DNA from: a virus
Taxonomy: Duplodnaviria; Caudoviricetes
Reading direction: 5' to 3' (one strand)
Length of the DNA stretch: 64,000 bases
IMG/VR virus record: IMGVR_UViG_2516653058_000003
Location: 8,875-72,874 of that record
Position numbers and translations under genes: made by a program. Positions 1 to 61,308 of this stretch are shown here, piece after piece (the stretch's first letter is position 1; every line of letters starts with the position of its first letter). The notes beneath the pieces were generated by a model that saw only the letters and a program-made list of their open reading frames with translations, was not told where the DNA came from and ran no database searches.

Positions 1-3000
1 CTTGGTTGTAAACCTGTTCCTTGGGGTCTGTGTACAGTTTTGCCCGTTCATCGACAGGCAGGTTCTTTAACCCGTCCAACTGGACAGCAGTTTGGCCGCT
101 TTTATCAAAAAGCTCTTCAAAGTGCGCCACTTTTGTGGCCAAATCCCTCTCTGACTCCTGTTGCTTAATAGCCAGCAATTCCGCCTGTATGGCTTTTTCG
201 CGGGCCAGGTTGCGGGTTTCCTTAGCCTTCTTTAGCTCCTCCTCCAGCATAGCTTCTTTGCTATTGTTAGCTAGGTCACCGATATACTGAGCCTGTCCCG
301 CTTTGCTAGTGGCGGAGCTAAACTCGGACTCCCTCGCCATTTTTTCTTTGGCGAGTTTGTCAGCTATTTCTTTGTCCTTACGTTCCTTCTCTGTTTGAGT
401 CTTTTTAGTTTCTAAATCAGTACGGGCTTCGTTGATCTGTTCGTCCAGAAATGTCAACAGCACATGGCGTTTTTCTTGTGCCGCTTTTTCTTCTTTGCTG
501 ACAGGGGTGACAAAGCCAGAGGAGTTGCTGGCAGGGCTGTGCGACATATCCCCTTCAAGCTTCCGTTTGGCGGCTTCCAAAGCAGAAATGTTGTTTTCAA
601 TAACTTGTTCGGTAGCCGTGGCGGCTGCAGCCGATGTGGCACGGATAGATAGTATTAGACGGTCAAACCCGGCGGAGTCCACACCTTCCAGGTTGGTCCA
701 GGCAGCCGCCATCGCATCAACTTTGTTGTTTAGCATGTCCGCCATTTGATTGGGGGCATCTTCAAAAACCAGTTGGTAAGCTTTAGCTAAAGCACTGGAT
801 ACCTTTTCAAAATTTTCAGGGGTTACAGCTTTGGTGGTCGTGATTAGCTGTTTTTCTTCCTCAGACAATTTGTTATAGGTGGCTAATATGGATTTTTGGA
901 CAGCACTCGGATCAGCAGAATTAATAGCCTCATTAATCTCCCGTAATTGTTGCTCCGTCTTGCTGGCAATAATGGCCTGGCTGGCGGCCACACTTTGTCC
1001 GGCTTCCGAAAGGGATTTCACTTTCTCATCGGAAACGTCGATCAGCTTACGCAACCTCTCCAGGACTTCCTTCTGGGCAGGGGATCCAGACTCTACCCCT
1101 TCTGTACCCAGTTTGGTGACCTCTTTTATGATCTCGTCAGAAAGAGTAGCGACGCCCAATTGTTTTGCAATTTTCTCCTTTGCTTCAGTAAAATCTTTGC
1201 GAGCCTCATCAACAATGGCGGCCTGTCCATCCTTGGTAGAGGAAGAGAACGACGCATACGCTGTCGTATGCTCGTCAATCTGTTTTTGTTGGTCAGCCAT
1301 TTGCTTAGTGGCTGCCTGAAGCCTGGCCTGTGGGTCTCCTTGGCCTTTGAATAACTGGTATGTGCCATAAAGCGTTGCGGCTGCGGCAGCAGCCACAGCT
1401 ATTGCCCTGATTATCGGGATTTGCTTTAGAAACAATAAAGGGGCTTCGGCGAACAACTGAATACCTGCATAAAGGTCTCTCCAGACTACCACCCCTTTCT
1501 TGGCCACATCCCCTGTTTTCCCGGCCAAGGAAGATAAGGCAGCAGCATACAAGGCAGCCTCTCCGGCCATGGCCAAATTATCCCCGGTGTCACCTTGGGT
1601 GTGGGATAATGTATCCGCACCGGAAGCAGCAGACCCTACGCCTAACGCCGCCGCACCTCTTTTGATAAATCCACCGGAGGTTTTAGCATAAGCCAACCCC
1701 CCGGCCACAGCGCCGAATATTAATGACCTCTGGGTAGACCCTGACGACTCGCCATTGGCTTGTATGACATTTTGCCGGGCAGCCTCCAGTAAAGACTTTA
1801 GCGTTTTAGTGATATCAACTATGGTAGGGAAAAAACCACTTATTAACTCGTGGTTAAGTGACACAGCGGAAGATTCAAGGCCGCTGAGGGCGTTACTGAC
1901 CGCCTCCATGTTAGTGGCAGCCCCACGGTCAATCGCGCCTGATTGGGAAATTTGGGCGATATTTTCGATGCGCTTGTCGAGTGAATCTAATAATGGCAGC
2001 AAGACGTTTTGTGCGCGTGTTTCAGTGACCCGGTTAAAGTCATTACGGGCCACCCCAGCAACACCAAGGCGTTTCAATTCCAGCAATACGGACTGGATAG
2101 GGTCATCGGATTTCGTAAAGCTTTGGTATTTTGCACGAATCTGGGCTTCCGATATAAGCCCTTCACCAATTTTGGCATACCGGTCTTTCAAGAAAGACAT
2201 CAACTTGGCATCCGGGGAGAACAACTCGACCATCATCTCCCGTAAACCGGTGGCGATGGTGGAGTCCTTTACACCTCTATTAGACAGCACAGCCGCAGAA
2301 GCCAGCAATTGGGTATCGGATACCCCGGTCAGCTTGGCGGTAGACGCACTCAAAGAGATGATGGTGCGCAGCCCTTCCGTAGTCAGTTTGGACACGTTGA
2401 CGGCTTGCGCCAGTCGATCCGCCAAGGCGGCCATTTGCATCGGTTCAGTTTTGTCAAACGCCTCGCTGAGGGATGTCAACACTTCCGAAGAGGTCTTAAG
2501 GTCTGCTGACGTGGTTGACGCCAATTTCGAGACCGTAGAAAGGATGCTGGGCAGGTTATTGATCTGAATACCCGCTTGTGCCAACACTTGTGCCGCCTGG
2601 GCAATCTCGGACGTAGAGAATTGGCTGGCCTCGGATACGCCTTTAATCGCCTCTTCGACTATAGCCATCTCGTTCTTGCTGGCTTGCGAGATGGCCTGGA
2701 TGGCGTGCAGGGCTTTATCTAATCCGGTGGTGTCTGAAAACAAGGATCCAACGCCGGACAATAGTTTATATCCCGCCCCATAGAGGACAGCATAACGTAG
2801 GAATTGCTGTGTGGCGATGGCTGCCTGATGGGTGAACCCGGCAAGCCCACGCATCTCACTATTAACAAATTTCAAGCCTTGCTGAAGCTCTGGTAGCCTG
2901 CCGCCAAGTTTTTTGTATTCGTCATTGAGCAGCTTGAAATCAGCGGAGGCGGGGTTTTTGCCTGCCATCTCTTGCAGCAAATCCTTACGGGCTGCTTTAA

Positions 3001-10747: not shown

Positions 10748-11314
10748 TTAGTTACGTCGTTTATTGAAGCTGTTTTGTTGCAGACGGGCTTGGTCGAGAA
10801 CTGGGGGGCCAGACGATTCGTCAGTTTCCTCGGACTCTACCGCCGCCACTCCGCCCACTTTGAATTTGCTCATAAAAGTGGTGGTAGTTTTAGCGTGTTG
10901 GGCTAACAGGGTTTCGGCGGGCAGTTCGGACATGTCGATAGGTGTGCCGCCCATTGCGACTTGCATTTTTTGTAAGCTGAGGTGGATTATGTCTTTCATC
11001 GGCTGGTGGGTCGCCTCAAATTTGGCGACGGCATTAGAGGCTTCAGCCAGCTGCGAAGTCAGTTCCAGAATCTTGCTGTCTTTAGCGGCCAATTCAGCTT
11101 TTAAGAAGGTGACGACCTCTGATTCCCCAATAGTGCCGACAACCAAGGCAGACTCCGTATTTTCTGTTTGGGAGTCTTCCAGAGAAGATTCGGCGGCGGT
11201 TTCGGCAGCCAATGCGGCTGCCGCTTCAGTGCCTAGGACAACAGCAGGGTCCGCCCCTGCCAAAAGGGCGGCTTGCTGTTGTTCCGTCATAGCGGGTCTG
11301 GGTATTTTGCTCAT
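10748..11314 (-). CDS. Putative nested scaffolding protein (in-frame internal start)
   Basis: TAAGGAAACCACATAT-ATG lies in frame at codon 281 of the protease; same arrangement as lambda C/Nu3. Confidence 0.5.
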   Translation of the reverse strand: MSKIPRPAMTEQQQAALLAGADPAVVLGTEAAAALAAETAAESSLEDSQTENTESALVVGTIGESEVVTFLKAELAAKDSKILELTSQLAEASNAVAKFEATHQPMKDIIHLSLQKMQVAMGGTPIDMSELPAETLLAQHAKTTTTFMSKFKVGGVAAVESEETDESSGPPVLDQARLQQNSFNKRRN

Positions 11315-12154
11315 ATATGTGGTTTCCTTACCATTTGATTTTTTGTCTAATTGTGATTGCAGCGTAGCGATCAACCCATCCAGGGTTGTCACGTCGTCCA
11401 CCAACCCAGCGTCCTTAGCTTGTTGCCCTACCCACGTTTGCCCGTTAGCCCAATTTGTCCAGACAAAATCTGAAGATATACCGCGATACTGGGCAACCCG
11501 GTCTGAGAACACCCGGTGCAGCACATCAGAGTGCTCTTGGATTTGCGCCTTGGCTTCGTCGCTAAGCTTCTCATAAGGGGTTCCTAGGGCTTTCTTATCC
11601 CCTGAACGGATAACCGTTGGTTTGACGCCATTTTGGCGGAGGTTTTCCGAGTAGTCTTTGTGTATCGTAATGACGCCGATGCTTCCGACAGTGGCCACTT
11701 CCCCTGCATATAAGTTACGGCAGGAAGACATGGCCCAATAGCCTGCGGACGTGGCGTGGCCTCCGGTGTACCCATCAATAGGGAATCCCATTGAAGTCAG
11801 TTGCCGGATAAGGTTGCCAAGGTCGGAGAGGCCGTTAGGCGTGCCGCCTCCTGTGTCAAAGTTTATGACACAGGAGGCGGCATCAGTGTGGGCATACGCT
11901 TCGAAAAGTGCGCGGCGGATTTGATTATACGACGTGTCGCCAAAATACCAAGTGCGCCAGGAGTCATCATTGGTCAATACACCAGTGACGTCGATGACGG
12001 CAACATTGCCGAACAAGGTGAAATACTCAGGGGGGTCGGAGGAGAGGCTATCTGACGTGATGCTGCCTGACAATAAGGCGGCATTTAAGCCCTCTTGCCT
12101 GGCGACGTAGTCGTTGTACTGCTGTAGGCTTCCTAGCCAGTGCGTAGCTTCCAT
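10748..12154 (-). CDS. S49-family prohead protease with C-terminal scaffold region
   Basis: Motifs NFDTGGG, HATSAGYW (catalytic Ser), GSIGV and SGDKKALG (Lys). The C-terminal third is acidic and helical. Confidence 0.85.
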   Translation of the reverse strand: MEATHWLGSLQQYNDYVARQEGLNAALLSGSITSDSLSSDPPEYFTLFGNVAVIDVTGVLTNDDSWRTWYFGDTSYNQIRRALFEAYAHTDAASCVINFDTGGGTPNGLSDLGNLIRQLTSMGFPIDGYTGGHATSAGYWAMSSCRNLYAGEVATVGSIGVITIHKDYSENLRQNGVKPTVIRSGDKKALGTPYEKLSDEAKAQIQEHSDVLHRVFSDRVAQYRGISSDFVWTNWANGQTWVGQQAKDAGLVDDVTTLDGLIATLQSQLDKKSNGKETTYMSKIPRPAMTEQQQAALLAGADPAVVLGTEAAAALAAETAAESSLEDSQTENTESALVVGTIGESEVVTFLKAELAAKDSKILELTSQLAEASNAVAKFEATHQPMKDIIHLSLQKMQVAMGGTPIDMSELPAETLLAQHAKTTTTFMSKFKVGGVAAVESEETDESSGPPVLDQARLQQNSFNKRRN

Positions 12155-23384: not shown

Positions 23385-24986
23385 ATGTCAAAAACTTTTA
23401 AAGGAAGAGCACCTTCCATCCTGCTGACGGCAAACGGACATACCCGTAACATTATGGAGTGGGCCGCCATTGTCTCCCCGGAAGACCCCCAACGGGCTGA
23501 ATTTGTGATCCGTGACCGGTACCAAAAAAGACGACGCCGGAACAGCCCGGTCACGGATGCCCAGGTCATTTATGGCCTGAGCTACCAAAGCACGGAAGAG
23601 ATGCCGATGGAGATGGGTCTGCCGCGCTTGTGCAGGATGTGGGTGCTGGAGGCGATGGACTTGGTGATGCCGCAGGTCGAGGAACACCTGTCCATGCGGA
23701 TGGCGGCATACCTGTCACAAAAGCACGGGACCCCGCCGCCTGGGGAATTCATCACGACCGATAAGTCTCTGCCTGCCAAGCGCCCAAAACCCAAACTAAA
23801 CCCAGTCCCAGGCGTAAACCCGTCCACGCCCGCCCTGAAGGTTGTCATGGATTGGCTAAAGGCGAACAACCTCGACGACCCTTTAATCGGGGACAACTAC
23901 CGGTCCGCCCAGCTGCTGATGATGTGCCAGGCCGACGAGCCGACGCCGGAGCTGTTGGCGTGGCATTTCGCCCTGCTGGATGAGACAGGCCTGTCCGCCC
24001 CCGTACCGGAAATCAAAAAGGAATTGCCTTACAAAACTGCAACCAAACACCAGGAGGAGTGGTGGGAACCTTACATCAAAACCCGCTACATCATTGACGC
24101 GTTCAAGGACGGCAGGGAGCCAGACCCGTTCACGCCAACGGACAACGCCGACACCCTCACCGAAGAGGAGGAAATGGAACTTGAAGCCCCTGCCTACACC
24201 CAAGAGTTCTGCCGGTCGTCGAAGGCACATGTCAATGAGGTGGTAGACCGCCGCTTCCTGAAGTCCCAGAACGAATACCTGTGCCTGATGCATAACAAAC
24301 AGGCCATAGACCGTCTTGACGGGCCGTCAGGCACCCAGGACGGGTTTGTCAAGTTCCTGAACTTTGCGTTTTTCGACATAGGGTTCCGGTGCGTGTTGCA
24401 GATCAGCGATTTCAGGACGTTGAACCGGGCGCAGCACGTCTATTTTCTGTCCGCCCTGTGCCGTAAGTTCAAGGCGTCGTTTGTGGGCAGGAACACCGAC
24501 CTCTGCGACAGCCTGTTGGAAAAGCTGTCCGAGTGGGGGCTTAACCCCCTGCCGCTGTCGCAGCTGCATAGGCACCCGTTGCTGTGCCACTTGCATTCAC
24601 GGGGCAACGAACAAGTGGCCGCTTCGCTTAAGCCATTGCTGGATTATGCGGACAGGCAGGGGCTGGATTACAACACCTACCAATATTGGGCGACTTTGGA
24701 TCACTACGAACACGAAACCCTGATCGACTTGGACCCTCTGTTCATCCCTGCAGAAATCAGGGAATCCGACAAGTACCAGGGGATATTGGACTCCTTGGTT
24801 GCCGCCACGAACTATGGCCGGAACATGGCCATGTGGCCGGAAGGGGTGGTGGCACCGAGGCCGGACATGGTGCCGTGCGACCTGTACGACGACCCCATAA
24901 AAGGCTACGATTACACCGTTTTCGACGGGGCGCCGTTGCTGGTTGACGGGTCCCATACGTTTGTTGTCTTGGAGGGGGTGGGGTGA
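23385..24986 (+). CDS. Large hypothetical protein (533 aa)
   Basis: Long ORF with coherent codon usage; TATAAT at 23344 upstream; N-terminal LTANGHTRNIMEWA motif; no family recognised. Confidence 0.8.
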   Translation: MSKTFKGRAPSILLTANGHTRNIMEWAAIVSPEDPQRAEFVIRDRYQKRRRRNSPVTDAQVIYGLSYQSTEEMPMEMGLPRLCRMWVLEAMDLVMPQVEEHLSMRMAAYLSQKHGTPPPGEFITTDKSLPAKRPKPKLNPVPGVNPSTPALKVVMDWLKANNLDDPLIGDNYRSAQLLMMCQADEPTPELLAWHFALLDETGLSAPVPEIKKELPYKTATKHQEEWWEPYIKTRYIIDAFKDGREPDPFTPTDNADTLTEEEEMELEAPAYTQEFCRSSKAHVNEVVDRRFLKSQNEYLCLMHNKQAIDRLDGPSGTQDGFVKFLNFAFFDIGFRCVLQISDFRTLNRAQHVYFLSALCRKFKASFVGRNTDLCDSLLEKLSEWGLNPLPLSQLHRHPLLCHLHSRGNEQVAASLKPLLDYADRQGLDYNTYQYWATLDHYEHETLIDLDPLFIPAEIRESDKYQGILDSLVAATNYGRNMAMWPEGVVAPRPDMVPCDLYDDPIKGYDYTVFDGAPLLVDGSHTFVVLEGVG

Positions 24987-24991
24987 AGCGC

Positions 24992-25138
24992 TATATTTAG
25001 AAATGGCCGCGTCGTCTAGTGGTTAGGGCATGGGTACTTGGAAACGTCGGTTCGAATCCGACTTAATCGTCTAGCGGCCTAGGACACCAGACCGCCGAAA
25101 CGCAGGTTCGAACCCTGTCGCGGCCATTTTTAAATATA
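24992..25138 (+). ncRNA. tRNA-mimic RNA with two D/T elbows, one extended acceptor stem and no anticodon arm
   Basis: Acceptor GGCCGCG/CGCGGCC; D-arms at 25014-25029 and 25069-25085; T-arms GTCGG-TTCGAAT-CCGAC and GCAGG-TTCGAAC-CCTGT; 20-bp closing helix. Confidence 0.75.
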
Positions 25139-25203
25139 ACCGGAGATGTAGGCCTGTTGCGGATGGATTCTGGGTGCATTCGATTTTTTACCAAGATCCA
25201 ACC

Positions 25204-25395
25204 TCAATGCCTTTTAAGCAGGCCCTTGCCCCCCTCCAACACCACCAGCAAATTTCTCCTCCCTTCTGCAATTTCCGAGGATTTATCCAAATCCTCGAAA
25301 TATTTTTTATCCCCGGACACCCACGCCTCCACCGCTTTCGCTAGCGCGGCCTCCACGTTAGTGGGCACAACAGTTGGTTTTTTGATGTGTACCAT
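25204..25395 (-). CDS. Small hypothetical protein
   Basis: 63 aa from MVHIKK, downstream of an AT-rich gap; the only plausible minus-strand ORF in this arm. Confidence 0.45.
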   Translation of the reverse strand: MVHIKKPTVVPTNVEAALAKAVEAWVSGDKKYFEDLDKSSEIAEGRRNLLVVLEGGKGLLKRH

Positions 25396-25629
25396 AATAA
25401 ATACTACATTTTGTAATAAATAACAAAAAGTATATAACGACGATGGTGTATTTTCAATATAAGTCAAATGGGTAATATTTACCCCGCCACGGTTTTCGTA
25501 GTTGTTGCGTGGTGGTTCACATATTTTGGTTTGGGCTTGTGGTTGTTGGGTTCCAATTGCCGCAGGCCCGAACAAACCCAGAACCTTCCCGTTGCGAGAG
25601 GTTTCTGGCTTTGTTCCCAGCAAAGCAGG

Positions 25630-25647
25630 CCAAGGCAGCACACTTGG
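25630..25647 (+). promoter_or_regulatory. CAGCAC-loop hairpin element
   Basis: CCAAG-G-CAGCAC-A-CTTGG upstream of ATG 25673. Confidence 0.55.
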
Positions 25648-25672
25648 AAATTTTAAAATAAGGATAGTGGCC

Positions 25673-25966
25673 ATGGATAGGATCAGTGCGGCGGCAGAAT
25701 TGGTGCGTAAGATCACCGAAGCGCAGCAGGCGGAGAAACAGCTTGAGGACCCGAACATCTGGGCGGACCGGGCAAGCCTTACCTGTGCATTGGTGGTCAT
25801 CCTCAACCTGTTCGTCCTGGCCGCCAAACTAATCTGCTCATGGTTCGATATCCAGCTGGACGTGCCGCCCGACTTGGTAAGCAACACCACCGAAATCGTC
25901 ACCTTTTTCGGTGTCCTCGTCGGCAACCGCATCCACATCGCTTCAAACAGGGACGCAGGCAAGTAG
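25673..25966 (+). CDS. Small two-TM membrane protein (holin-like topology)
   Basis: 97 aa from MDRISA; two hydrophobic segments and a charged C-terminus. Confidence 0.6.
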   Translation: MDRISAAAELVRKITEAQQAEKQLEDPNIWADRASLTCALVVILNLFVLAAKLICSWFDIQLDVPPDLVSNTTEIVTFFGVLVGNRIHIASNRDAGK

Positions 25967-26019
25967 TCCCTTATTCCCCGCCACGGATGGCTCCCTTTGT
26001 TTAAAGACCGGAGACACCC

Positions 26020-26679
26020 ATGCGACAAATCCCCATCAACGAGGGAAACCTCGTCAAGACAATCATCTGCGCTTGCGTACAGATGTTGGACTTTGGCCCG
26101 ATAACGACAGACCGTAAAGACCTTGAAGCGGCCTTATATTCCTGCGAGGAACTGAAGGCGTTCACGGAACCGTTTATCCGAAAAAACCTGGACCAGGCTA
26201 TTGGGATCAATCGCCAGCAACCTTCCGCACTTATAAACCGCTCCCTGCTGTTGGCCGCCACGGTCTCAAGGTCCCTTTATGCCGAAGTCGCATATAAGGT
26301 CCTGGTCGGCATATTGGCCAAGTTGGGGGTGGATTTTGACAAGCATGGCAGTTTTATCCGGGAAGTGGGAAAGGCGTTGGGCGGGTGGGATTCGGCGGTG
26401 GCGGCGATTATCGCAATAGCCGTCTTAGATGTTGCTGTAACAAAGGACTGGGACCGGCGGAAAGTCAAGGTGCTAACTGAAGAAGCAGAAACCCAATATC
26501 TGAAATTCAATAAAAACGGACGCGGATGCAGCTGCCACTTGAACCCACCCTGTTCGTCCTGCACCCATGTAGGTAATCCCACCAATCTCTTAGAAACCGA
26601 AAAAGATTGGGAGCTAGTGACGGTTGACGAAGCGGATGGCCGCACGACTTACGCCGAGTTGGAGGCAGCCGCCAGCTAA
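26020..26679 (+). CDS. Hypothetical protein with a CSCHLNPPCSSC motif
   Basis: ACCGGAGAC RBS; Cys/His cluster suggests metal binding. Confidence 0.75.
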   Translation: MRQIPINEGNLVKTIICACVQMLDFGPITTDRKDLEAALYSCEELKAFTEPFIRKNLDQAIGINRQQPSALINRSLLLAATVSRSLYAEVAYKVLVGILAKLGVDFDKHGSFIREVGKALGGWDSAVAAIIAIAVLDVAVTKDWDRRKVKVLTEEAETQYLKFNKNGRGCSCHLNPPCSSCTHVGNPTNLLETEKDWELVTVDEADGRTTYAELEAAAS

Positions 26680-46161: not shown

Positions 46162-49100
46162 ATGAACATCAAGACCCTGTTCGATTTACGGGGTATGGTT
46201 ATCCATGCCTTAAATGCCAGCACCGACCGTGAACCCATCACACTCCCCAGCGGTGAAAAGGCCAACAGCGTTGGCCACTGCCTCAATAATTTTATTGAGA
46301 TGTACCTGCTGCCAACCATACAAGAAACCCGCCTGAACGATATTATTGCTGTCAGAGACGGCGGCAATGAATACCGTAAAGCACTGTATCCTGAATACAA
46401 AGCCAACCGGGCAGGTAAAGACCCGGAGCTGTCAATCCACCATAGCAATTGCGTCAATGCCGTTATTGACCTTTTAAAAGGCCTGGGCATACCGGTTGCC
46501 GAAATCCCTGGAGTTGAGGCGGATGACATCCTGGCCTATCTGGTAGAGAAATTACCAGGTCCTAAGATGATTTACACAGTAGACCAGGACCTACTGCAAC
46601 TGTCCTCCCCCGACTGCCTGGTTTTTTTGAAAACCCAAATCAACACCGACGGGTACGCCCTTTATAACTGCAGCGGATCCAGCAAGCAACTGTTGATGAC
46701 GGTTCATCCACGGCATGTGGCCTTGCTGAAATCCATTGTTGGGGATTCGTCGGATAATTATGGCGGCGTAAAAGGCGTGGGGCCTGTGGCCTTTGCCAAA
46801 CTAGCAGAAGTCTACGGATTGGATGGGTTAGATGAATTGTGTTCAATTATTAGTAAGGATGGTTATGCCACCTTACAAGAAGTCATCAACCAAACAGGGG
46901 ACAAAACCTTGGTGGCCTTGTTTGAGCGCCGTGACGAGTGGAAACTAGGCTGGAATCTGGCCAACCTGGCCCCGCAGCTGGTCGGCGAGCGTAAAACCAC
47001 CAAGTTCAATAACATCATTTGGACGAAGCGCCTGCCCAGTCCAGAGCGTGTCAACCGCATCTTGGCTGAACATGGTTGCGGGTATCTCTACCCAAAACTA
47101 AAACCGGTACTCCCAACGAAAACACTGATTACAGCGGACAACATGCCGCCATTGTCTCGTTTTGAAAGTGCGTTCAAACAATCCGAAGTCATCGCCGTTG
47201 ACTGGGAGACCACGGATTACCTACAGCACCAACCTTTTCGTGATGCAACCAAAGGCCGTGAATTTGTTGACATGCTATCTGCCAAATTGACAGGGTCGGG
47301 TTTTACCTTCGGGCGAAATTACGAACACACAATATATGTGTCGTATGACCATGCAGACACTAATAATTTGCCACGGGAAACGCTGCTGGATTTACTGGGG
47401 GTGATACCGGACGAATCAGTTATAGCTATTCAAAACTGCCTACCTGGGGATGTGGAGGTTCTAACTAGAGATGGTTGGGCGTGTATAAAGGACACGAATT
47501 GCAGCCAAGAAATTATGCAATGGGATAGTACAACAGGAGAGTTGTCTTTTGCCCATCCGACACAGAAAGTAGAGGCGGACGCTGACACTCTTTTGAAGTG
47601 GGACACGTTGTACCACTCTTGTACCTACACACCAGAGCATCGAATGTACTTCCAATCAAATCACTGCTTCCCTAAGTGGAAGGCGGAACCTTGTAAGCAA
47701 GTATCTGAGTATCATCCGAATACTGTATACATCCCTCTAGCAGGCATATACAACCACCCTTCTGTTCAATTGACGGAGGCCGAGGCTCGGCTATTGGAAG
47801 CGATACGGGCCGATGGGCATTTCCCTGTGAACAGATCTAAGCAGATTAAGTTTCACTTCATAAAACAACGAAAGATAGACCGGCTCCTAGAATTGTGTAG
47901 GGAGGCAGGGATCGAGACTGTTGTAGTTAAAGAAACAGATGGGTCGGTGCGTGTAACACTACAATCAAGCTCTTTGGTAGGTAAGTTTAGAAGCTTACTG
48001 GGGGTAGAACGACGTTACACAAAAACTCTGGTACTGTCTTTGGATATAAAGGCCAGAGAATATATCCTTGATGAGGTTAAGTTTTGGGACGGAGGCTCTG
48101 TATATAAGAAAGGTGCTCACTTTTATTCAATAGATGTGGAGACTGTGGACGCGATCCAATTAATGGCTCATATATCTGGGTGGCGGTGTTCTGGTTCATG
48201 GGGGGGGAATAAAAAGGGGTATGGGCTACTAAACGGTAAAAACATCTTTAGAGGGACACTGTACCCAAGATCACGAGCCAAATTAATGCAGACCCCTGTT
48301 GAGGTGCCACATAACGGAAAAGTATTTTGTTTTTCTGTACCTTCTGGGGCGTTTATGGTGCGTTCGAAAGGCAAGATACATATTACCGGAAACTGTATGT
48401 TCGAAAATACAGTGCTCCGCTGCAATTTTAATGGTGCCTTTCTGACGAATTGCCACGACACCAAGGTGATGGCTAGCTACGTCGATGAAAACCAACCGGC
48501 AGGCTTAAAAGACCGGGCATTACTACACCTCAACTACAGACAAACCCATTACGGTGATGTGATCGCCAAAGGCAAAACGATGTCCGACTACTCCGCCGAG
48601 CATGTGTTCCAATACGGCGCAGACGACCCGCTAGTCACTGCCCACTTATATGATTTCTACAAAATGATCATGCAGATCGAAGGCACGTTTGACTTCTGTG
48701 TGGCCAATGAAATGGAACCTATTGAGATGATCTCGGAAGGGTTCATCGCCGGGGTGTCGGTGGATTGGGATGAATTGGAACGGCAAGGCATTGAAGACCG
48801 CAAAACTTTGGATGAGTCCATCGTTAAGATCAGGGAGCTGATCGTAGCAAACCAAACTGAAGAGACCATCGAATCCGGTGTTGACCGTATCTACTCGGAA
48901 GATGTTGAAGAAGTGGTGGCGCGGGTCAATACCGACTTCAAGGCGGGCAAATTTAACGGCCTGGCCGACCCGGCAGAGCTGGTTCGTGACCGTGAGATTT
49001 CCGCCAAATCTATTGCCCTGCGGAAGAAGTTGGAAGGGTTGGTAACCTATCAGCCGTATGTCGAAACGTCCGTTGATGCCGCCATTGATATGACCCCGTC

Positions 49101-50892
49101 CGACATCAACCCCCTGCTGGAAGGTCTGGGAATACCAAAACTGGAAGCTGGGACCGACGCGTTGCAAGGTTATAAGCTAGCCGATTTTTTGAAAAAACAG
49201 CAACTGGTTTCTGACTGGGCAAAGCCTTACATGTCCAACTCTCCCGAAGCGGCCACATTCTTACGGTTGTTGGTGCCTGCTGTAGCTTACAACGACACCG
49301 CCAAAACCAAACTCGCTAAAGGTGAAGGGCGTGCCCACCAGGTCTATAAAGAATGGCAGGAATATGCAAAAACCTTGAGGGGAGAGAAGGTGAAAGTGTC
49401 CTCAACCGGGTTCGAAATGAACCTTAACTCCCCCCTGCAAATGAAAGCGCTGCTGTACGGCATGTTTGACTTGCCTGCCCGTTTACGTGGTTTCGAAATC
49501 AGCGACACCCGCAAGGCGTTGGGTCTGGTAACCCCCACCATCCAAGCCAATGAAGATGCCATAGTCACGGCATTGGCGGAAGACTGTGCAGACCATTCCT
49601 GGAAAAAAGAAGCCTTGGAAGCGTTAATGGCGGCGAAAAAATGCCAAACCCGTATCAGCATGTTTTACGACGTTTATCCAAAATGGCAACATCCCGTTGA
49701 CGGGCTAATCCACCCTCAGGTTAACAGTTGTGGGACAGAAACCAGACGCCCTACGGGTTCGTCCCCCAACCCACTACAATGGCCTAAGCGAGGGGACGGG
49801 GTTAAGTTTCGTAACTGCATCCTACCTAACGAAAAGTTGGGTCACGACCTGATTGTGTCAATAGACTGGAGCCAGCAGGAGCTTCGTATTGCGGCGGCCT
49901 TGTCGATGGATGAAGCCATGCTGGATTGTTATATTGGGAAGGATGTCGAACATGTAATATCTGGCGACGTGGAGGCGTTGCTGGGCGAAGCCCTATTGTC
50001 TAGGTTCCTTAAAACAAGCACGAAAGACATCCACACCCAAACCGCATCAGGTCTGTTGAAGTGGGCATACGATGATGTGGTGGCCGCGTTATCTGGAGAT
50101 GATAAAACCCTAGCTAAGACTGCTAAGGATGCGCGTGTTACGTCGAAACCCATCAATTTCGGGGGCACCTATGGTATTGGTAGCGGCAAGCTTGCCAGGC
50201 AGTTAATTTGCCCTATCACAGAGGCCAAACAATATTTGGCAGATAAAAAAGCGCTGTATCATGGGTTTGAGCGTTGGCGTGAAAACGTCATCAACCTCGT
50301 CTGCCAGCAAGGGTTTGTCACCACTGCCTTCGGCAACCGCCGCCATGTGTTCGACCAGATTACCACCCAAGACGAAGGGCTATGGGCATCTGTCTGCCGC
50401 CAAGTGGTGAACTACCTTATCCAAGGAGTTTGTGCCGATAACTTGAAGCGCACGATGACCGCTATCCGGCAGCAAGGCATAACACAACGCACTGGTGCGG
50501 TGCTTATAGCTCCGATCTACGATGAGTTGGTGTTCTCAGTACACAGCAGCAATGCGGTTGACTTAATCATGAATGTCCACAGCATCATGACCAGGGATAT
50601 ACCAGGAATGGCGGTGCCGATGTTGGCTGAGCCTTCCTTGGGGATCAACTTTGGGGTGCAGGTAGAAATCGGGGCGTTCCCGACACCTGAAAAAATCGAA
50701 TCGGCAATGTCTAAGGCTTTTGCTGTGCCACGGCAGTTGTGGGTTCATTATGGGTCGGATTCCTATATCGAAACCCATGACTTACGGGATCTCAAACACT
50801 TAGCGGAAGTGCCTGAAGACTTGTATGACGTGACGGATATACCGGAGCATGAAGAACGGTTTAAACAGCAAATATTACAAGTAGCCGCTTAA
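46162..50892 (+). CDS. polA: Family A DNA polymerase (5'-3' exonuclease + 3'-5' exonuclease + polymerase) with an intein
   Basis: FEN motifs YPEYKANR, EADD and GDSSDNYGGVKGVG; ExoI DWET; ExoIII YGADD; motif A DWSQQELR; motif B KPINFGGTYG; motif C YDE. Confidence 0.95.
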   Translation: MNIKTLFDLRGMVIHALNASTDREPITLPSGEKANSVGHCLNNFIEMYLLPTIQETRLNDIIAVRDGGNEYRKALYPEYKANRAGKDPELSIHHSNCVNAVIDLLKGLGIPVAEIPGVEADDILAYLVEKLPGPKMIYTVDQDLLQLSSPDCLVFLKTQINTDGYALYNCSGSSKQLLMTVHPRHVALLKSIVGDSSDNYGGVKGVGPVAFAKLAEVYGLDGLDELCSIISKDGYATLQEVINQTGDKTLVALFERRDEWKLGWNLANLAPQLVGERKTTKFNNIIWTKRLPSPERVNRILAEHGCGYLYPKLKPVLPTKTLITADNMPPLSRFESAFKQSEVIAVDWETTDYLQHQPFRDATKGREFVDMLSAKLTGSGFTFGRNYEHTIYVSYDHADTNNLPRETLLDLLGVIPDESVIAIQNCLPGDVEVLTRDGWACIKDTNCSQEIMQWDSTTGELSFAHPTQKVEADADTLLKWDTLYHSCTYTPEHRMYFQSNHCFPKWKAEPCKQVSEYHPNTVYIPLAGIYNHPSVQLTEAEARLLEAIRADGHFPVNRSKQIKFHFIKQRKIDRLLELCREAGIETVVVKETDGSVRVTLQSSSLVGKFRSLLGVERRYTKTLVLSLDIKAREYILDEVKFWDGGSVYKKGAHFYSIDVETVDAIQLMAHISGWRCSGSWGGNKKGYGLLNGKNIFRGTLYPRSRAKLMQTPVEVPHNGKVFCFSVPSGAFMVRSKGKIHITGNCMFENTVLRCNFNGAFLTNCHDTKVMASYVDENQPAGLKDRALLHLNYRQTHYGDVIAKGKTMSDYSAEHVFQYGADDPLVTAHLYDFYKMIMQIEGTFDFCVANEMEPIEMISEGFIAGVSVDWDELERQGIEDRKTLDESIVKIRELIVANQTEETIESGVDRIYSEDVEEVVARVNTDFKAGKFNGLADPAELVRDREISAKSIALRKKLEGLVTYQPYVETSVDAAIDMTPSDINPLLEGLGIPKLEAGTDALQGYKLADFLKKQQLVSDWAKPYMSNSPEAATFLRLLVPAVAYNDTAKTKLAKGEGRAHQVYKEWQEYAKTLRGEKVKVSSTGFEMNLNSPLQMKALLYGMFDLPARLRGFEISDTRKALGLVTPTIQANEDAIVTALAEDCADHSWKKEALEALMAAKKCQTRISMFYDVYPKWQHPVDGLIHPQVNSCGTETRRPTGSSPNPLQWPKRGDGVKFRNCILPNEKLGHDLIVSIDWSQQELRIAAALSMDEAMLDCYIGKDVEHVISGDVEALLGEALLSRFLKTSTKDIHTQTASGLLKWAYDDVVAALSGDDKTLAKTAKDARVTSKPINFGGTYGIGSGKLARQLICPITEAKQYLADKKALYHGFERWRENVINLVCQQGFVTTAFGNRRHVFDQITTQDEGLWASVCRQVVNYLIQGVCADNLKRTMTAIRQQGITQRTGAVLIAPIYDELVFSVHSSNAVDLIMNVHSIMTRDIPGMAVPMLAEPSLGINFGVQVEIGAFPTPEKIESAMSKAFAVPRQLWVHYGSDSYIETHDLRDLKHLAEVPEDLYDVTDIPEHEERFKQQILQVAA
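47437..48393 (+). mobile_element. Intein with LAGLIDADG-type homing endonuclease (319 aa)
   Basis: Starts CLPGDVEVLT; block B TPEH; LLEAIRADG; ends VFCFSVPSGAFMVR…HITGN followed by Cys. Confidence 0.92.
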
Positions 50893-58448: not shown

Positions 58449-59756
58449 ATGAAAACTGAATTTAAGCTCCCAGCTGATAACCGTATTACTGTAACCATTG
58501 AAAGGACAGATAAGGATTTGGTAGGTAAATTTGTCCGATTCGAACATGCAGGCTTTTGCCGGGTTTGTGGATCCCACGAAAATCCCCACGCCGTTGTCAG
58601 GGAAATTATCCCAGACCGCAGCGACTCTATCGAAGCGGCCAGTGGGCACAGCAAAGCTATTGTTAGCTGGTTATCTGCTGAGCCATATCCTTCAGTTATG
58701 GAAGCACTCCACCAATCTGTGATGCTTGGGACAGCTGAAGCCATGAGAGCTGCCAATAACCACACCCTGCCATCATATGAAGAAGGTATAGCGGCTAGTG
58801 TATATTCCCCAAAATTTACGGGAAAATCCCTACCGAAAGCGAAAGGTTCGGTGATTGATGCGGTATTGATATCTATAGCAGCACTCCCGAAAAATCTCAA
58901 TGGCCGAATGGTGTCTAAGACAAAGTCGAAAGGCTTATTTATTAATGGCCTTGATGAGTACAGCCTCTGTTCCAACCCAAACTTGGCGGACGCGTATATA
59001 GTCGGAACTCATGCAAGTAAGGTCAGCCGTGCCGGAGTACATGGGCGGAGAGTGACGCTGAGGTTGGTTAAAGGCTCAACAACCGCCGAATTTACGGGGC
59101 CGGTTGTTTACGGGAACCTAACCTCAGAACCTCCTAACACAGATGAGTTGTTGGGGCAGTATGTAGAAGCTTGTTCAGATAGGGGTTTGTTTTCTCTAAC
59201 TCTTAATGAAAACATTGCAGTGGGGAGAGTTGTAAAAGTAGTACCAAGTCCTCAGCCTTCTAACACCATTGTGGGAGTGGTGTTCAGAGATCAGGGAACT
59301 TACGAACATATCACCAGCTGTTGGGCTAAGTGGAGTGAACTAAACCAGATCATTCAAGAAACAGAAACAGAAACACCTACCCAAGCTCTGCGCCACAACG
59401 CAGGGAAAGCCCCTCTCAGCTTTATATTCTCTGCACCTCACGCCCTGGAAGGGGTATCCCGTGTCCTGGAGTTCGGCGCCAACAAATATGCGCGTGACAA
59501 CTGGAAAAAAGGGTTCCCTTACACGGAATTGGTGGACAGCTTGTGCCGCCACTTGAAGGACTTCATGAATGGCGATGACAACGACGCGGACAGCGGTCTG
59601 CCCCACGTGGACCACATCCTTTGTAATGCGCTGTTCCTGTCCGAACTGACTCGGACACGGTCTGAATTCGACGACCGTGGCATCCCTAAACCCACACTAC
59701 CGGAAATAGATTTACGGGATAACGTCCTTAACTATGGTAAAGGAGGCGCAGAATGA
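58449..59756 (+). CDS. dATP/dGTP diphosphohydrolase (DUF5664-type) fused to a long unknown N-terminus
   Basis: C-terminal GKAPLSFI…VLEFGANKYARDNWKKG…DSLCRHL…DSGLPHVDHILCNALFL. Confidence 0.8.
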   Translation: MKTEFKLPADNRITVTIERTDKDLVGKFVRFEHAGFCRVCGSHENPHAVVREIIPDRSDSIEAASGHSKAIVSWLSAEPYPSVMEALHQSVMLGTAEAMRAANNHTLPSYEEGIAASVYSPKFTGKSLPKAKGSVIDAVLISIAALPKNLNGRMVSKTKSKGLFINGLDEYSLCSNPNLADAYIVGTHASKVSRAGVHGRRVTLRLVKGSTTAEFTGPVVYGNLTSEPPNTDELLGQYVEACSDRGLFSLTLNENIAVGRVVKVVPSPQPSNTIVGVVFRDQGTYEHITSCWAKWSELNQIIQETETETPTQALRHNAGKAPLSFIFSAPHALEGVSRVLEFGANKYARDNWKKGFPYTELVDSLCRHLKDFMNGDDNDADSGLPHVDHILCNALFLSELTRTRSEFDDRGIPKPTLPEIDLRDNVLNYGKGGAE

Positions 59757-60262
59757 AGCAACTAACTGGTGTAAGGTTAGCGGAATTCGTAAGCAAATTT
59801 GTCAGTGATCCGCTCACTCCTGGATACTCAGAGTTGGATATCCGAGTCGGCCTGACAATATATATATATAGGGAGCAGGAGCCCCACCGTACCCAGCGCA
59901 TACACCGCTTAGGGGAAGAACCGTGGGAAAACCTATACGATAAAGCTACCATTGGCCCACAAGGATTCTTTCTTAAAGCCGGAGAGTTTATAGTAGTAAA
60001 TTCTCTTGAAGATTTCTGCATCCCTCAAAACATCAAAGGTGTCCTTAACTTGCGGTCATTCGCCGCAAAATCGGGCTTAGGGCAGACCGCTTCCTTAATT
60101 ATGAAGCCGGGGTGGAATTACGGTACTGATAATGATGTGCAACCATTCCGTCTGGAAATCAACAACTCGCTCTCCCACCACGACCTCCATATCTGTACAG
60201 GAGATGTGATCGGGCAAGTGGAGTTTTACGACATTTCGGAGGTGTGTGATGACGGAAAATAA
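59753..60262 (+). CDS. dcd: dCTP deaminase/dUTPase-family protein
   Basis: SELDIRVG, LKAGEF, LRSFAAKSGL, PGW…LEINN and IGQVEF motifs. Confidence 0.75.
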   Translation: MKQLTGVRLAEFVSKFVSDPLTPGYSELDIRVGLTIYIYREQEPHRTQRIHRLGEEPWENLYDKATIGPQGFFLKAGEFIVVNSLEDFCIPQNIKGVLNLRSFAAKSGLGQTASLIMKPGWNYGTDNDVQPFRLEINNSLSHHDLHICTGDVIGQVEFYDISEVCDDGK

Positions 60263-60884
60263 AGGAAGCTACTGGAACTGCCGGGTTATTGAACACAAAG
60301 GGGAGTATCCTTGGTTTGGTATCCATGAAGTTTACTACGATGCTGGTGGGGGTGTTACCGGAATTACTGAAAATCCCGTACAGCTAGTACAGGGTTCGGT
60401 GGACGACCTACAAGATGAGATACATAAACTTAAAATGGCGTTTGAAAAGCCAGTGTTGGATTATGCAGCTTGTGCAGATGTAAGTAAAACCTGTGACAAC
60501 CTGTCCAGGGACGAACGGCAAAAAGTCGTACTGGGTTGGGCTATAGACACTTTTGGGGAATTAACGGCCACCTCTCTTACAGAGAGGGCAGCGAGGTTCA
60601 CTGAAGAGGCGTTGGAGTTGGCGCAGGCAGTGGGGCTGAGCCAGAACCATGTGATAAACATCCTCAACTACGTTTATGGCCGGCCTATTGGCGACACCGC
60701 CCAAGAGATTGGCGGGGTGGCGGTGTCTTTAATGGCATTGGGGGAGCGGCTTCGTTTGTCGATAGATGAGTGTGAGCGTCATGAATTAAACCGTATCCTG
60801 GCAAAAGACCCTAAGTTTTTCCGGGAAAAACAAAACTCGAAAGCAGGTGCCGGGGTGGCTTTGGAGGTGTCCAATGGCAAATAA
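60246..60884 (+). CDS. Two-domain protein with a C-terminal MazG-like domain
   Basis: N-terminal WNCRV…GIHEVYYD module; C-terminal ERAARFTEEALELAQA…QEIGGV. Confidence 0.7.
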   Translation: MMTENKGSYWNCRVIEHKGEYPWFGIHEVYYDAGGGVTGITENPVQLVQGSVDDLQDEIHKLKMAFEKPVLDYAACADVSKTCDNLSRDERQKVVLGWAIDTFGELTATSLTERAARFTEEALELAQAVGLSQNHVINILNYVYGRPIGDTAQEIGGVAVSLMALGERLRLSIDECERHELNRILAKDPKFFREKQNSKAGAGVALEVSNGK

Positions 60885-61068
60885 ACGCGTCCTTTCCGAA
60901 AAAGCCGCCGCCAACCTGGAATACAGCAAAGACAAACGCAAGCGCCGCCGCGAGCACCGGTGCCGGGCCAGGTCCATCCTGAGAGGTGAAGTTCCTTTCC
61001 GGTTGTGGGATGGCCAGACCCTGTACGACAAAGCCCGCTGGCATATGATGCAAGCCAAATACCTTTAA
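60874..61068 (+). CDS. Small basic protein
   Basis: GGAGG RBS before MANKRV; 64 aa. Confidence 0.5.
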   Translation: MANKRVLSEKAAANLEYSKDKRKRRREHRCRARSILRGEVPFRLWDGQTLYDKARWHMMQAKYL

Positions 61069-61081
61069 TTGGAGAATTGAG

Positions 61082-61270: not shown

Positions 61271-61280
61271 GAGTGTAACC

Positions 61281-61308
61281 ACCCTCCAACCCAGCACGGT
61301 TGGAGGGT
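61281..61308 (+). promoter_or_regulatory. CAGCAC-loop hairpin element
   Basis: ACCCTCCAACC-CAGCAC-GGTTGGAGGGT then TTATTTT; ACCGGAGAC at 61323. Confidence 0.85.

What the first reader, a model, noticed from the sequence alone, without database searches (positions are those of the whole stretch)
24992..25138. Double-elbow, anticodon-less tRNA mimic RNA
Seen in sequence, the order is: acceptor 5' strand GGCCGCG (25005-11), TC, D-arm 1, A, 11 nt (TGGGTACTTGG), AAAC, T-arm 1, a TTAA linker, TC, D-arm 2, A, 11 nt (CCAGACCGCCG), AAAC, T-arm 2, acceptor 3' strand CGCGGCC and A. Both units carry tRNA-Glu/Gly-like D and T loops, and both replace the 17-nt anticodon arm with exactly 11 nt. The two 11-mers can pair with each other: 3 bp, a 4x4 internal loop, then 4 bp. 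That fold would give one tRNA core (D1+T2+acceptor) whose anticodon loop is replaced by a second, circularly permuted core (T1+D2). The acceptor helix extends a further 13 bp (24992-25004 with 25126-25138) and no CCA is encoded. Established: bacterial Y RNAs and tmRNA mimic the tRNA elbow without an anticodon, and anticodon nucleases (PrrC, RloC, PARIS AriB, VapC) are anti-phage effectors. Inference: this is a selected ncRNA, possibly a decoy for tRNA-targeting defences, RNase P or tRNA-modifying enzymes, or an elbow-binding scaffold. I do not recognise this architecture.
Basis: partly seen in the sequence, partly recalled or inferred. Interest (0 to 1): 0.92.

Follow-up and report, generated by a model that had tools for sequence, protein, structure and literature searches.

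The report
Two-headed anticodon-less prophage tRNA mimic
A large prophage encodes a 122-147-base RNA built as one glutamate-type tRNA body with a second, back-to-front tRNA body where the anticodon loop should be. Four other phage or metagenome sequences keep this fold through compensating mutations. The RNA cannot read codons, and its job, most likely imitating tRNA to bind tRNA-recognising proteins, is untested.

Summary
Rfam's tRNA model matches 25005-25126 above its gathering score, but only by skipping a 61-nt insert at the anticodon position. ARAGORN finds no tRNA.

I found four more loci with the same nested design:
- L113, a close relative that shares the same AT-rich flanks.
- L143, which lies inside a tRNA array.
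- L144.
- L162, in a 353-kb phage.

Across the five sequences every helix covaries, including the two short helices formed between the two "11-mers". In L144 the 15-48 tertiary pair switches from G-C to A-U in exactly the partnership that the nested fold predicts. This is therefore a selected RNA, not a relic of two tRNA genes.

Both bodies keep the tRNA-Glu core: the U13-G22..A46 triple and a 4-nt variable loop. D-arm 2 is identical to the host tRNA-Glu D-arm. The inner body has the layout of the YrlA tRNA-like domain. However, no Ro60 gene and no YrlA model match were found.

Function is unknown. My best guess is a trans-acting tRNA mimic released from the 3' end of the upstream transcript. 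Neither Rfam nor the searched papers describe the fold. Earlier unchecked notes of this scan report the same design on other phage DNA.

The parts
24992..25004 (+). 5' strand of the 13-bp AT-rich stalk that extends the acceptor helix
   Evidence: It pairs with 25126-25138, giving a 20-nt inverted repeat at 95% complementarity. The same 13 nt, with one change that turns the G-U into A-U, flank the L113 copy, and similarity to L113 stops exactly here. The stalk is not present in L143, L144 or L162.
25005..25011 (+). Acceptor stem, 5' strand (outer body)
   Evidence: Rfam tRNA model positions 1-7. All 35 of 35 pairs are standard across the 5 homologues, against 58% when strands are paired with another sequence's partner.
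25012..25029 (+). U8-C9 junction and D-arm 1 (4-bp stem, 8-nt loop with A14, G15, G18, G19, A21); it belongs to the outer body
   Evidence: Sequence, the Rfam alignment and the parse of the 5 homologues.
25030..25041 (+). A26 and the first 11-mer: outer cross-helix strand (25031-33), internal-loop strand (25034-37) and inner cross-helix strand (25038-41)
   Evidence: It pairs with 25087-25097. Across the 5 sequences the outer helix has 17/18 standard pairs and the inner helix 18/19, against about 50% with swapped partners. The loop 5' strand is G-(A/U)-A-C in W, L113 and L143 (GAUC in L144, GAAGG in L162).
25042..25062 (+). 4-nt variable loop 1 (AAAC) and T-arm 1; they belong to the inner, permuted body
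   Evidence: T-stem pairs are standard in 25/25 cases with covariation. In L144 this variable loop ends in U, opposite A15 of D-arm 2; this Levitt-pair switch assigns it to the inner body.
25063..25066 (+). UUAA linker in the position of the inner acceptor stem
   Evidence: Identical in L113. L143, L144 and L162 have a 6-8-bp hairpin here instead. That hairpin is the layout of the YrlA acceptor hairpin (structure line).
25067..25086 (+). U8-C9-like junction, D-arm 2 and an A26-like base (inner body)
   Evidence: A 22-nt stretch starting at the UC junction (25067) is 100% identical to the D-arm region of both host tRNA-Glu(UUC) genes.
25087..25097 (+). Second 11-mer: inner cross-helix strand (25087-90), internal-loop strand (25091-94) and outer cross-helix strand (25095-97)
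   Evidence: Partner of 25031-25041. The loop 3' strand is (A/U)-C-C-G in W, L113 and L143.
25098..25118 (+). 4-nt variable loop 2 and T-arm 2 (outer body)
   Evidence: Rfam tRNA model positions 44-65. T-stem pairs are standard in 25/25 cases with compensatory changes.
25119..25126 (+). Acceptor stem 3' strand and the discriminator A (25126); no CCA follows
25126..25138 (+). 3' strand of the AT-rich stalk
25276..25307 (+). Terminator-like hairpin with a T-run; likely end of the transcript that carries the RNA
   Evidence: The L113 copy has a terminator 35 nt after its stalk.
23385..24986 (+). Upstream 533-aa orphan ORF, whose stop codon lies 5 nt before the stalk; the probable source of the transcript
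   Evidence: No Pfam or PHROG family matches. No promoter-like site lies between the ORF and the RNA. The only distant homologue has no such RNA after it.

Best explanation
This is a real, selected, non-decoding RNA gene of a large prophage.

Shown:
- The RNA folds as a glutamate-type tRNA body made of the acceptor stem, D-arm 1 and T-arm 2.
- Its 3-bp anticodon-stem stump runs through a conserved 4x4 internal loop into a 4-bp helix.
- That helix closes a second, circularly permuted glutamate-type tRNA body: T-arm 1, a UUAA linker in place of an acceptor stem, and D-arm 2.
- There are therefore two complete tRNA elbows at the two ends of one shared stem, and no anticodon loop.

Inferred:
- The RNA is transcribed as the tail of the upstream gene's message.
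- It is cut out through the 20-bp terminal stalk, which suits RNase III, and/or by RNase P at G25005.
- It then acts in trans by mimicry. It offers two tRNA-Glu-type cores (elbow plus 'augmented D helix') to proteins that recognise tRNA by its body and not its anticodon.
- It would work either as a non-productive competitor or as a bridge holding two such proteins. GluRS is the obvious candidate, because it reads exactly these core features.
For: Structure:
- Rfam tRNA matches above its gathering score, with the inner 61 nt as an insert.
- Four further loci have the same nested design.
- Own-partner pairing compared with swapped-partner pairing: acceptor 35/35 vs 0.58; T1 25/25 vs 0.71; T2 25/25 vs 0.81; outer cross helix 17/18 vs 0.48; inner cross helix 18/19 vs 0.51.
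- L144 switches the 15-48 tertiary pair from G-C to A-U between D-arm 2 and the variable loop that precedes T-arm 1. Only the nested fold predicts that partnership.
- The unconstrained minimum-energy fold of the L162 copy is exactly this nested structure.
- In W, L113 and L162 neither 11-13-mer can form a hairpin of its own (inspection).

Mimicry of tRNA-Glu:
- Both bodies keep U8, A14, G18-G19, the T-loop, the U13-G22..A46 triple and a 4-nt variable loop lacking residue 47.
- Together with U11-A24, these are listed as major GluRS identity elements in PMC9976931.
- D-arm 2 is 22/22 identical to the host tRNA-Glu.
- The acceptor sequences and the discriminator are not conserved, so the bodies, not the ends, are under selection.

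Trans action:
- Genomic context differs in every locus: after an orphan ORF here, between baseplate genes in L113, in a tRNA array in L143, and between small ORFs of a 353-kb phage in L162.

Transcription:
- No promoter-like site lies upstream, and a terminator lies downstream, both here and in L113.
Against: - No expression data exist.
- No binding partner is known.
- GluRS also needs the anticodon, so its affinity for an anticodon-less mimic may be low.
- D-arm 1 has U11-G24 instead of U11-A24.
- The Glu-type look of at least one D-arm per hit was imposed by my search patterns. The second arm was not imposed in L143 or L144.
- Only five sequences support the family, and two of them are 92% identical.
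- The slippery G/C-rich outer helix has one mismatch in L113 and could shift register.
- The minimum-energy fold of the window copy does not give the nested fold. The two near-palindromic T-loops pair with each other instead, which is a usual failing of energy folding on tRNAs.
Confidence: 0.5

Rival explanations
1. A cis-acting 3'-end element of the upstream message. The tRNA-like fold plus the stalk would serve as a processing, stability or termination signal, for example an RNase P or RNase III punctuation site or a 3'-exonuclease block. The released RNA would have no role of its own.
For: - It starts 5 nt after the stop codon of the 533-aa ORF, with no promoter-like site in between.
- The L113 copy sits inside a tail-gene operon just before a terminator.
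- The GC-rich acceptor helix is followed directly by a T-run.
Against: - A single tRNA-like fold would do this job, yet two complete elbows with all tertiary bases are conserved.
- The upstream genes are unrelated in each locus.
- The only homologue of the 533-aa ORF lacks the element.
- L143 sits among ordinary tRNA genes.
Confidence: 0.15
2. A tRNA-like substrate that is matured, given a CCA end and possibly aminoacylated. It would then be used outside normal decoding, as an amino-acid donor or as a target or primer of an enzyme that acts on 3' ends.
For: - The outer body keeps a 7-bp acceptor stem stacked on a T-arm, the RNase P/CCA-enzyme substrate shape.
- M. smegmatis YrlA is cut by RNase P and receives CCA (PMC4201824).
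- The L144 copy encodes ACCA after its acceptor stem.
Against: - Four of the five copies, this one included, encode no CCA.
- Acceptor sequences and the discriminator vary freely (A, A, G, C, A).
- There is no G3-U70.
- GluRS needs U34-A37.
- In the precursor, the stalk pairs the discriminator.
Confidence: 0.08
3. A decaying relic of two tandem tRNA-Glu genes, or of host tRNA-Glu DNA picked up by the phage, with no function.
For: - The host has two tandem tRNA-Glu genes.
- D-arm 2 is identical to theirs.
- Phages do carry abutting tRNA-Glu pairs, as in L160.
Against: - The same rearranged design recurs in five loci, with different sequences in every helix and compensatory changes.
- All tertiary bases are intact in both bodies.
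- No homologous locus has two intact tRNAs.
- The strands are swapped (the 5' acceptor strand of unit 1 pairs with the 3' strand of unit 2), which simple deletion of two anticodon arms does not produce.
Confidence: 0.04
4. A DNA-level element: a small mobile cassette or recombination site whose 20-bp terminal inverted repeat is what matters.
For: - Similarity between the window and L113 ends exactly at the outer ends of the AT-rich repeats, while the neighbouring genes are unrelated.
- This indicates that the unit has moved as a cassette.
Against: - No target-site duplication is seen.
- Several conserved pairs are G-U, which are mismatches on the other strand or in DNA.
- L143, L144 and L162 lack the repeat.
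- The motif occurs nowhere else in the window beyond chance.
Confidence: 0.04
5. A Y RNA of the YrlA kind that tethers a Ro60 (Rsr) protein.
For: The inner body has the YrlA order (closing stem, 4 nt, T-arm, [acceptor hairpin], 2 nt, D-arm).
Against: - There is no YrlA model match, even at E = 10.
- No TROVE-domain gene is found in the 99.97%-complete host genome, nor in five phage records that carry related modules.
- No Ro-binding helix motif was seen.
Confidence: 0.03

Closest known systems
YrlA (Y RNA-like A, Rfam RF02553; Chen et al. 2014, PMC4201824; structure preprint 10.1101/312249)
   Same: It is a tRNA mimic with real D- and T-arms, no anticodon loop and no free CCA end. Its order, T-arm before D-arm and closed by an 'anticodon-stem' helix, is the order of the inner body here. 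In L143, L144 and L162 the acceptor hairpin is present too.
   Different: - Here the permuted body is not on a Ro60-binding stem. It is grafted into the anticodon position of a second, normally ordered tRNA body.
- The window copy has only UUAA where YrlA has its acceptor hairpin.
- No RF02553 match was found.
- No Ro60 gene was found.
Canonical tRNA-Glu (Rfam RF00005; host genes at genome positions 376973-377170)
   Same: The outer body matches the tRNA model above its gathering score. D-arm 2 is identical to the host tRNA-Glu. Both bodies keep the U13-G22..A46 triple and the 4-nt variable loop.
   Different: - There is no anticodon arm, so it cannot decode.
- ARAGORN rejects it.
- No CCA is encoded, although every genuine host tRNA found encodes one.
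- The acceptor stem is not Glu-like.
Phage T5 RNA2 (T5s06 in NC_005859, annotated 'tRNA-like stable RNA with unknown functions'), and the T4 species 1 and 2 RNAs (rnaC, rnaD)
   Same: These are small stable RNAs of unknown function encoded among phage tRNA genes. On my reading of its sequence and fold, T5 RNA2 has an 8-bp acceptor stem, a D-like arm, a long central stem and two T-arms.
   Different: - I see no second D-arm in T5 RNA2.
- My model R1 scores T5 RNA2 at 23.8 bits, no better than ordinary tRNAs.
- R1 does not match T4 rnaC or rnaD at all.
- Homology is not shown.
tmRNA tRNA-like domain, and mascRNA / viral TLS
   Same: These are tRNA-shaped RNAs that cannot decode yet engage tRNA-binding proteins. 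mascRNA binds GlnRS, according to PMC9976931.
   Different: - Each has a single elbow.
- tmRNA has the alanine G3-U70 pair and a tag reading frame.
- None of them carries a second, permuted tRNA body.

Membership tests
tRNA (RF00005) | Covariance-model match above the gathering score | tested here: met
   36.5 bits against a gathering score of 29, model positions 1-71, with 61 nt treated as an insertion.
tRNA (RF00005) | Anticodon arm: a 5-bp stem with a 7-nt loop bearing U33 and an anticodon | tested here: not met
   The position holds a 3-bp stump leading into a second tRNA-like body. ARAGORN finds no tRNA in the window.
tRNA (RF00005) | Tertiary-core bases (U8, A14, R15-Y48, G18-G19, T54-A58, C56) | tested here: met
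   They are present twice, once in each body, in all five homologues. The 15-48 pair covaries in L144.
YrlA / bacterial Y RNA (RF02553) | Permuted tRNA-like domain: closing stem, T-arm, acceptor hairpin, D-arm | tested here: inconclusive
   The order is the same. The acceptor hairpin is replaced by UUAA here and in L113, but is present in L143, L144 and L162.
YrlA / bacterial Y RNA (RF02553) | Match to the Rfam covariance model | tested here: not met
   No RF02553 match in 24900-25250, even at E = 10.
YrlA / bacterial Y RNA (RF02553) | A Ro60/Rsr (TROVE) gene nearby or in the genome | tested here: not met
   PF05731 was not found in the host genome, which is 99.97% complete. It was also not found in five phage records with related modules. 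The positive controls matched.
YrlA / bacterial Y RNA (RF02553) | A Ro60-binding helix formed by the 5' and 3' ends, with the conserved GNCGAA-type motif | tested here: not met
   The terminal helix here is an acceptor stem plus an AT-rich stalk. I saw no such motif by eye. This is a weak test.
tmRNA | Alanine-type acceptor (G3-U70) and a tag peptide frame | tested here: not met
   ARAGORN reports no tmRNA in the window. Pair 3-70 is C-G.
Two-headed (double-elbow) phage tRNA mimics noted earlier by this scan (unpublished, unchecked notes) | A normally ordered tRNA body with a permuted T-arm/D-arm body in place of the anticodon loop, joined through one shared stem and kept by covariation | tested here: met
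   for the five Glu-type loci. I did not compare them with the sequences behind the earlier notes.
Phage T5 RNA2-type stable tRNA-like RNAs | Sequence or structure homology to T5 RNA2 | tested here: inconclusive
   R1 scores T5 RNA2 at 23.8 bits, in the range of ordinary tRNAs. The shared features are two T-arms and a central stem, seen by inspection only.

The most novel reading that the evidence does not exclude
This would be a new class of phage RNA: a pseudo-two-fold 'tRNA dimer in one chain'. It would use two tRNA-Glu-type cores to capture or bridge two copies of a host factor that reads the tRNA body, for example GluRS or another enzyme specific for the tRNA-Glu core, or a tRNA-directed defence protein. 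By doing so it would reprogram host translation, stress signalling or immunity. It sits in a prophage of a fully assembled bacterial genome, which should make it directly testable if the strain is available.
Probability: 0.25. Interest if true: 0.85.

Novelty: new variant of a known kind. Interest (0 to 1): 0.72.

Why it matters
tRNA mimics are a recurring way for viruses and cells to hijack tRNA-binding machinery, and all well-described ones present a single tRNA shape. An RNA that builds the complete tRNA corner twice on one shared stem, and keeps that design in unrelated phages, implies a partner that benefits from two tRNA bodies at a fixed distance. Such a partner could be a dimeric enzyme, two enzymes brought together, or one high-avidity trap.

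This copy mimics the host's own tRNA-Glu and is the only tRNA-like gene found in the 64-kb window. It belongs to a prophage in a closed bacterial genome, so knock-out, expression and pull-down experiments should be feasible. The finding also shows that tRNA finders and Rfam either miss such genes or label them plain 'tRNA'. Genome annotation therefore misreads them.

Tried and rejected
- Expression: no RNA holder listed. The only sequencing runs holding the stretch are DNA, probably the source sample.
- BLAST of the element against cultured phages and against plasmids gave no match. BLAST against 60 relatives hit only tRNA-Glu D-arms.
- BLAST of the L162 and L143 copies against cultured phages found no two-headed relative.
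- Model R1 over 150 genomes of the host's order matched only genuine tandem tRNA-Glu genes.
- Pattern scan of genome contigs gave 7 hits, all false. Most were ordinary tRNAs or T-arm-like sequences followed by a chance D-arm motif, and one was an assembly artefact with an N in tandem tRNA-Glu genes.
- A loose pattern in viral contigs gave 108 hits, about the number I estimated by hand from chance alone. Only 6 passed a structural filter.
- Ro60 link: rejected.
- Link to the 533-aa upstream ORF: rejected. It is an orphan, and its one distant homologue has no such RNA.
- Link of permuted modules to a particular downstream gene: rejected. The neighbours are unrelated and include an alginate lyase.
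- Own promoter: none found by a simple sigma-70 scan, here or in L113.
- AT-rich flank as a recurring phage motif: not supported.
- Energy folding of the window copy does not recover the nested fold, so it is uninformative.
- The model-made alignment A5 scrambles the inner hairpins. I therefore parsed the helices by hand in a script and did not use the count of structure pairs.
- T4 rnaC and rnaD are not of this design.
- Literature searches found no description of the fold.

Full report
**1. Observation**

The order is:
- a 7-nt acceptor strand (25005-11);
- UC;
- a glutamate-type D-arm;
- A;
- 11 nt;
- AAAC;
- a T-arm;
- TTAA;
- a second UC, D-arm, A, 11 nt, AAAC and T-arm;
- the complementary acceptor strand;
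- A.

The acceptor helix is prolonged by 13 AT-rich pairs. This gives a 20-nt terminal inverted repeat with a single G-T.

ARAGORN finds no tRNA or tmRNA in the 64-kb window. Rfam's tRNA model does match 25005-25126, at 36.5 bits against a gathering score of 29. It does so by pairing the first three bases of the first 11-mer with the last three of the second, and by treating the 61 nt between them as an insertion at the anticodon. No other Rfam family matches, even at E = 10.

**2. Setting**

The window is part of a single-contig 4.69-Mb bacterial genome.

It is phage DNA:
- Terminase, portal, protease and capsid genes lie on the minus strand at 4-18 kb.
- A long plus-strand block follows, with KilA-N, DUF932, TerB, NAD-dependent DNA ligase, an SNF2 helicase, a 1576-aa family-A polymerase, SbcCD-like proteins, an RNase T-like exonuclease and nucleotide-metabolism enzymes.

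None of the tRNA genes that ARAGORN predicts in the genome lies in the window.

The RNA starts 5 nt after the stop codon of a 533-aa orphan ORF. A simple scan finds no promoter-like site in front of it, and a terminator-like hairpin lies at 25276-25297.

D-arm 2 with its junctions is 22/22 identical to the two host tRNA-Glu(UUC) genes.

**3. Relatives**

BLAST found nothing in cultured phages, plasmids or 60 related genomes beyond tRNA-Glu D-arms. I therefore scanned collections with short patterns that normal tRNAs cannot satisfy. One pattern required a T-loop followed too closely by a D-arm. The other required a Glu-type D-arm followed too closely by a T-loop. I filtered the hits by structure and with a covariance model built from the window and its closest relative.

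Five loci have the two-headed design:
- The window.
- L113 (also held as L145). Its core is 92% identical to the window's and has the same UUAA linker and the same 13-nt flanks. It lies between two Mu-like baseplate/DNA-circulation genes and 35 nt before a terminator.
- L143:803-951, inside a dense tRNA array.
- L144:121-259, which ends in ACCA.
- L162:6047-6185, in a 353-kb phage contig.

In L143, L144 and L162 the UUAA linker is replaced by a 6-8-bp hairpin.

**4. The fold is under selection**

I cut the five sequences into their segments in a script that checks the pieces against the stored DNA. I then compared each 5' strand with its own 3' partner and with the partners of the other four sequences.

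| Helix | Standard pairs with own partner | With another sequence's partner |
|---|---|---|
| Acceptor | 35/35 | 58% |
| T-arm 1 | 25/25 | 71% |
| T-arm 2 | 25/25 | 81% |
| Outer cross helix between the two "11-mers" | 17/18 | 48% |
| Inner cross helix | 18/19 | 51% |

The cross helices have entirely different sequences in different loci. The outer helix, for example, is 3 bp in the window and four quite different base pairs in L143, L144 and L162.

A tertiary contact gives an independent test. In tRNA, base 15 of the D-loop pairs with base 48, the last base of the variable loop. In L144, D-arm 2 has A15 where every other D-arm has G15. The variable loop that precedes T-arm 1, and only that one, ends in U instead of C. 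This is the partnership the nested model predicts (D-arm 2 with T-arm 1). A simple tandem of two tRNA-like units would predict the opposite.

The "tandem cloverleaf" alternative also pairs worse in the three hairpin-bearing copies. It is impossible in the window and L113, where unit 1 has no 3' acceptor strand.

For L162, unconstrained energy folding returns exactly the nested structure. For the window it does not, because the two near-palindromic T-loops pair with each other in silico. I regard that result as uninformative.

The internal loop between the two cross helices is itself conserved in W, L113 and L143: G-(A/U)-A-C opposite (A/U)-C-C-G. It is similar in L144 and L162. This suggests a specific shape or contact there.

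**5. What is conserved and what is not**

Conserved in both bodies and all five loci:
- U8, A14, G18-G19 and the T-loop;
- a 4-bp D-stem with U13-G22;
- a 4-nt variable loop with A46 and no residue 47.

The review PMC9976931 lists the U13-G22..A46 triple, the absence of residue 47 and U11-A24 as major identity elements of E. coli tRNA-Glu for GluRS, besides the anticodon. In the window, D-arm 2 has U11-A24 and D-arm 1 has U11-G24.

My patterns forced one Glu-type D-arm per hit. They did not force the second arm in L143 or L144.

By contrast, the acceptor sequences and the discriminator (A, A, G, C, A) vary freely, and only L144 encodes CCA. Selection therefore acts on the two tRNA bodies and their spacing, not on the ends.

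**6. How it probably works**

Shown: a conserved RNA fold with two tRNA elbows and no anticodon. The RNA cannot decode.

Inferred, step 1: it is transcribed with the upstream gene. No promoter is detected, and a terminator lies downstream both here and in L113.

Inferred, step 2: the 20-bp stalk forms in that transcript and is a suitable RNase III substrate. The outer body (acceptor stem stacked on a T-arm, with an elbow) is the shape RNase P needs. [quoted passage not shown] The stalk is conserved only in the window and L113, and similarity between these two loci ends exactly at its outer edges. The cassette appears to move together with its processing stalk.

Inferred, step 3: the released RNA acts in trans as a mimic of the tRNA-Glu body. 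It binds one or two copies of a protein that reads the tRNA core. The varied genomic contexts argue for trans action. The identity of D-arm 2 with the host tRNA-Glu argues for a host-specific target. GluRS is the simplest candidate, but it is no more than that. I give the whole chain 0.5, and the specific GluRS idea much less.

**7. Comparison with known RNAs**

The inner body has the order of the YrlA tRNA-like domain, as shown by the structure line of RF02553 and by PMC4201824. The RNA fails the YrlA membership tests:
- no model match;
- no TROVE/Ro60 gene in the host or in five phage records with related modules;
- no Ro-binding helix.

Other comparisons:
- T4 rnaC and rnaD are not of this design.
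- T5 RNA2, annotated in its GenBank record as a tRNA-like stable RNA of unknown function, has two T-arms and a central stem on my reading. It has no clear second D-arm, and my model gives it only a tRNA-level score.
- Papers searched by words gave no description of a two-elbow tRNA-like RNA.

Earlier notes of this scan report the same architecture in other phages, in valine- and alanine-type versions. Those notes are unchecked AI notes. I used them only as leads, namely the T4 and T5 RNAs, which I tested. This locus adds a glutamate-type version in a prophage of a closed bacterial genome.

**8. Verdict**

- The structural interpretation is supported.
- The functional interpretation is open.
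- This is not a tRNA, not a Y RNA and not a relic.
- It is a new architectural variant within the tRNA-mimic kind.
- Interest is 0.72.

Noticed in passing
L158:~1950-2100(-) and L161:~180-370(-): Two tandem permuted tRNA-like modules, each with its own closing stem, lie just before an alginate-lyase gene in jumbo-phage contigs. The closing strand CUCUC could pair either with an upstream GAGAG or with the GAGAG that serves as the gene's ribosome-binding site, so a structural switch is possible.
   Followed up: partly
L159:~2480-2790(-): A chain of three or four permuted tRNA-like modules in series lies next to tRNA genes in a 210-kb phage contig. Each module has a T-arm, a hairpin with a GNRA or UUCG loop, a D-arm and a short closing stem.
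   Followed up: partly
L023:6188-6221(-) and L026:4548-4581(-): Single permuted modules (closing stem, AGAG, T-arm, 8-nt linker, UC, Glu-type D-arm) without an acceptor hairpin lie directly upstream of a ribosome-binding site and start codon of small ORFs with no known family.
   Followed up: partly
L133, L152, L154, L149, L151, L153, L164, L165 (coordinates): Single-elbow Glu-type tRNA look-alikes in which a 10-13-nt mini-hairpin or palindrome replaces the 17-nt anticodon arm. The copies I read encode no CCA (L165 ends in ACCA; acceptor unclear). Some of the replaced segments are self-complementary and could pair two molecules.
   Followed up: no
L143:1317-1435(+) and the whole of L143: A further odd tRNA-like gene has one D-arm and two T-arms but no recognisable second D-arm. 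The 1.7-kb tRNA array also contains a GC-rich repeat of about 95 nt, present at least three times.
   Followed up: no
L024:482-555(+): A sub-threshold YrlA match (38 bits against a gathering score of 69) and a group I intron-like match at 11239-11426, both in a viral contig.
   Followed up: no
window 58449-63749 (+): A cluster of nucleotide-metabolism genes: a protein with the dATP/dGTP diphosphohydrolase N-terminal domain, a dCTP-deaminase-like protein, thymidylate synthase and dihydrofolate reductase. The phage might alter its DNA bases or nucleotide pools.
   Followed up: no
window 46162-50892 (+): A 1576-aa family-A DNA polymerase. About 830 residues between the 5'-3' exonuclease domain (residues 26-232) and the polymerase domain (residues 1061-1497) match no family.
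   Followed up: no
window 24963-24978 and 25230-25245: A 16-nt inverted repeat (88% complementary) brackets the whole RNA gene at a distance. One arm lies in the end of the 533-aa ORF and the other lies 90 nt past the stalk. It may form a second, outer long-range stem in the transcript.
   Followed up: no
window 25204-26028 (-) versus 25502-25966 (+) and 26020-26679 (+): Overlapping ORFs on opposite strands lie downstream of the RNA, and none has a known family. The plus-strand terminator-like hairpin at 25276-25297 lies inside the minus-strand ORF, so that ORF may be spurious or shorter.
   Followed up: no
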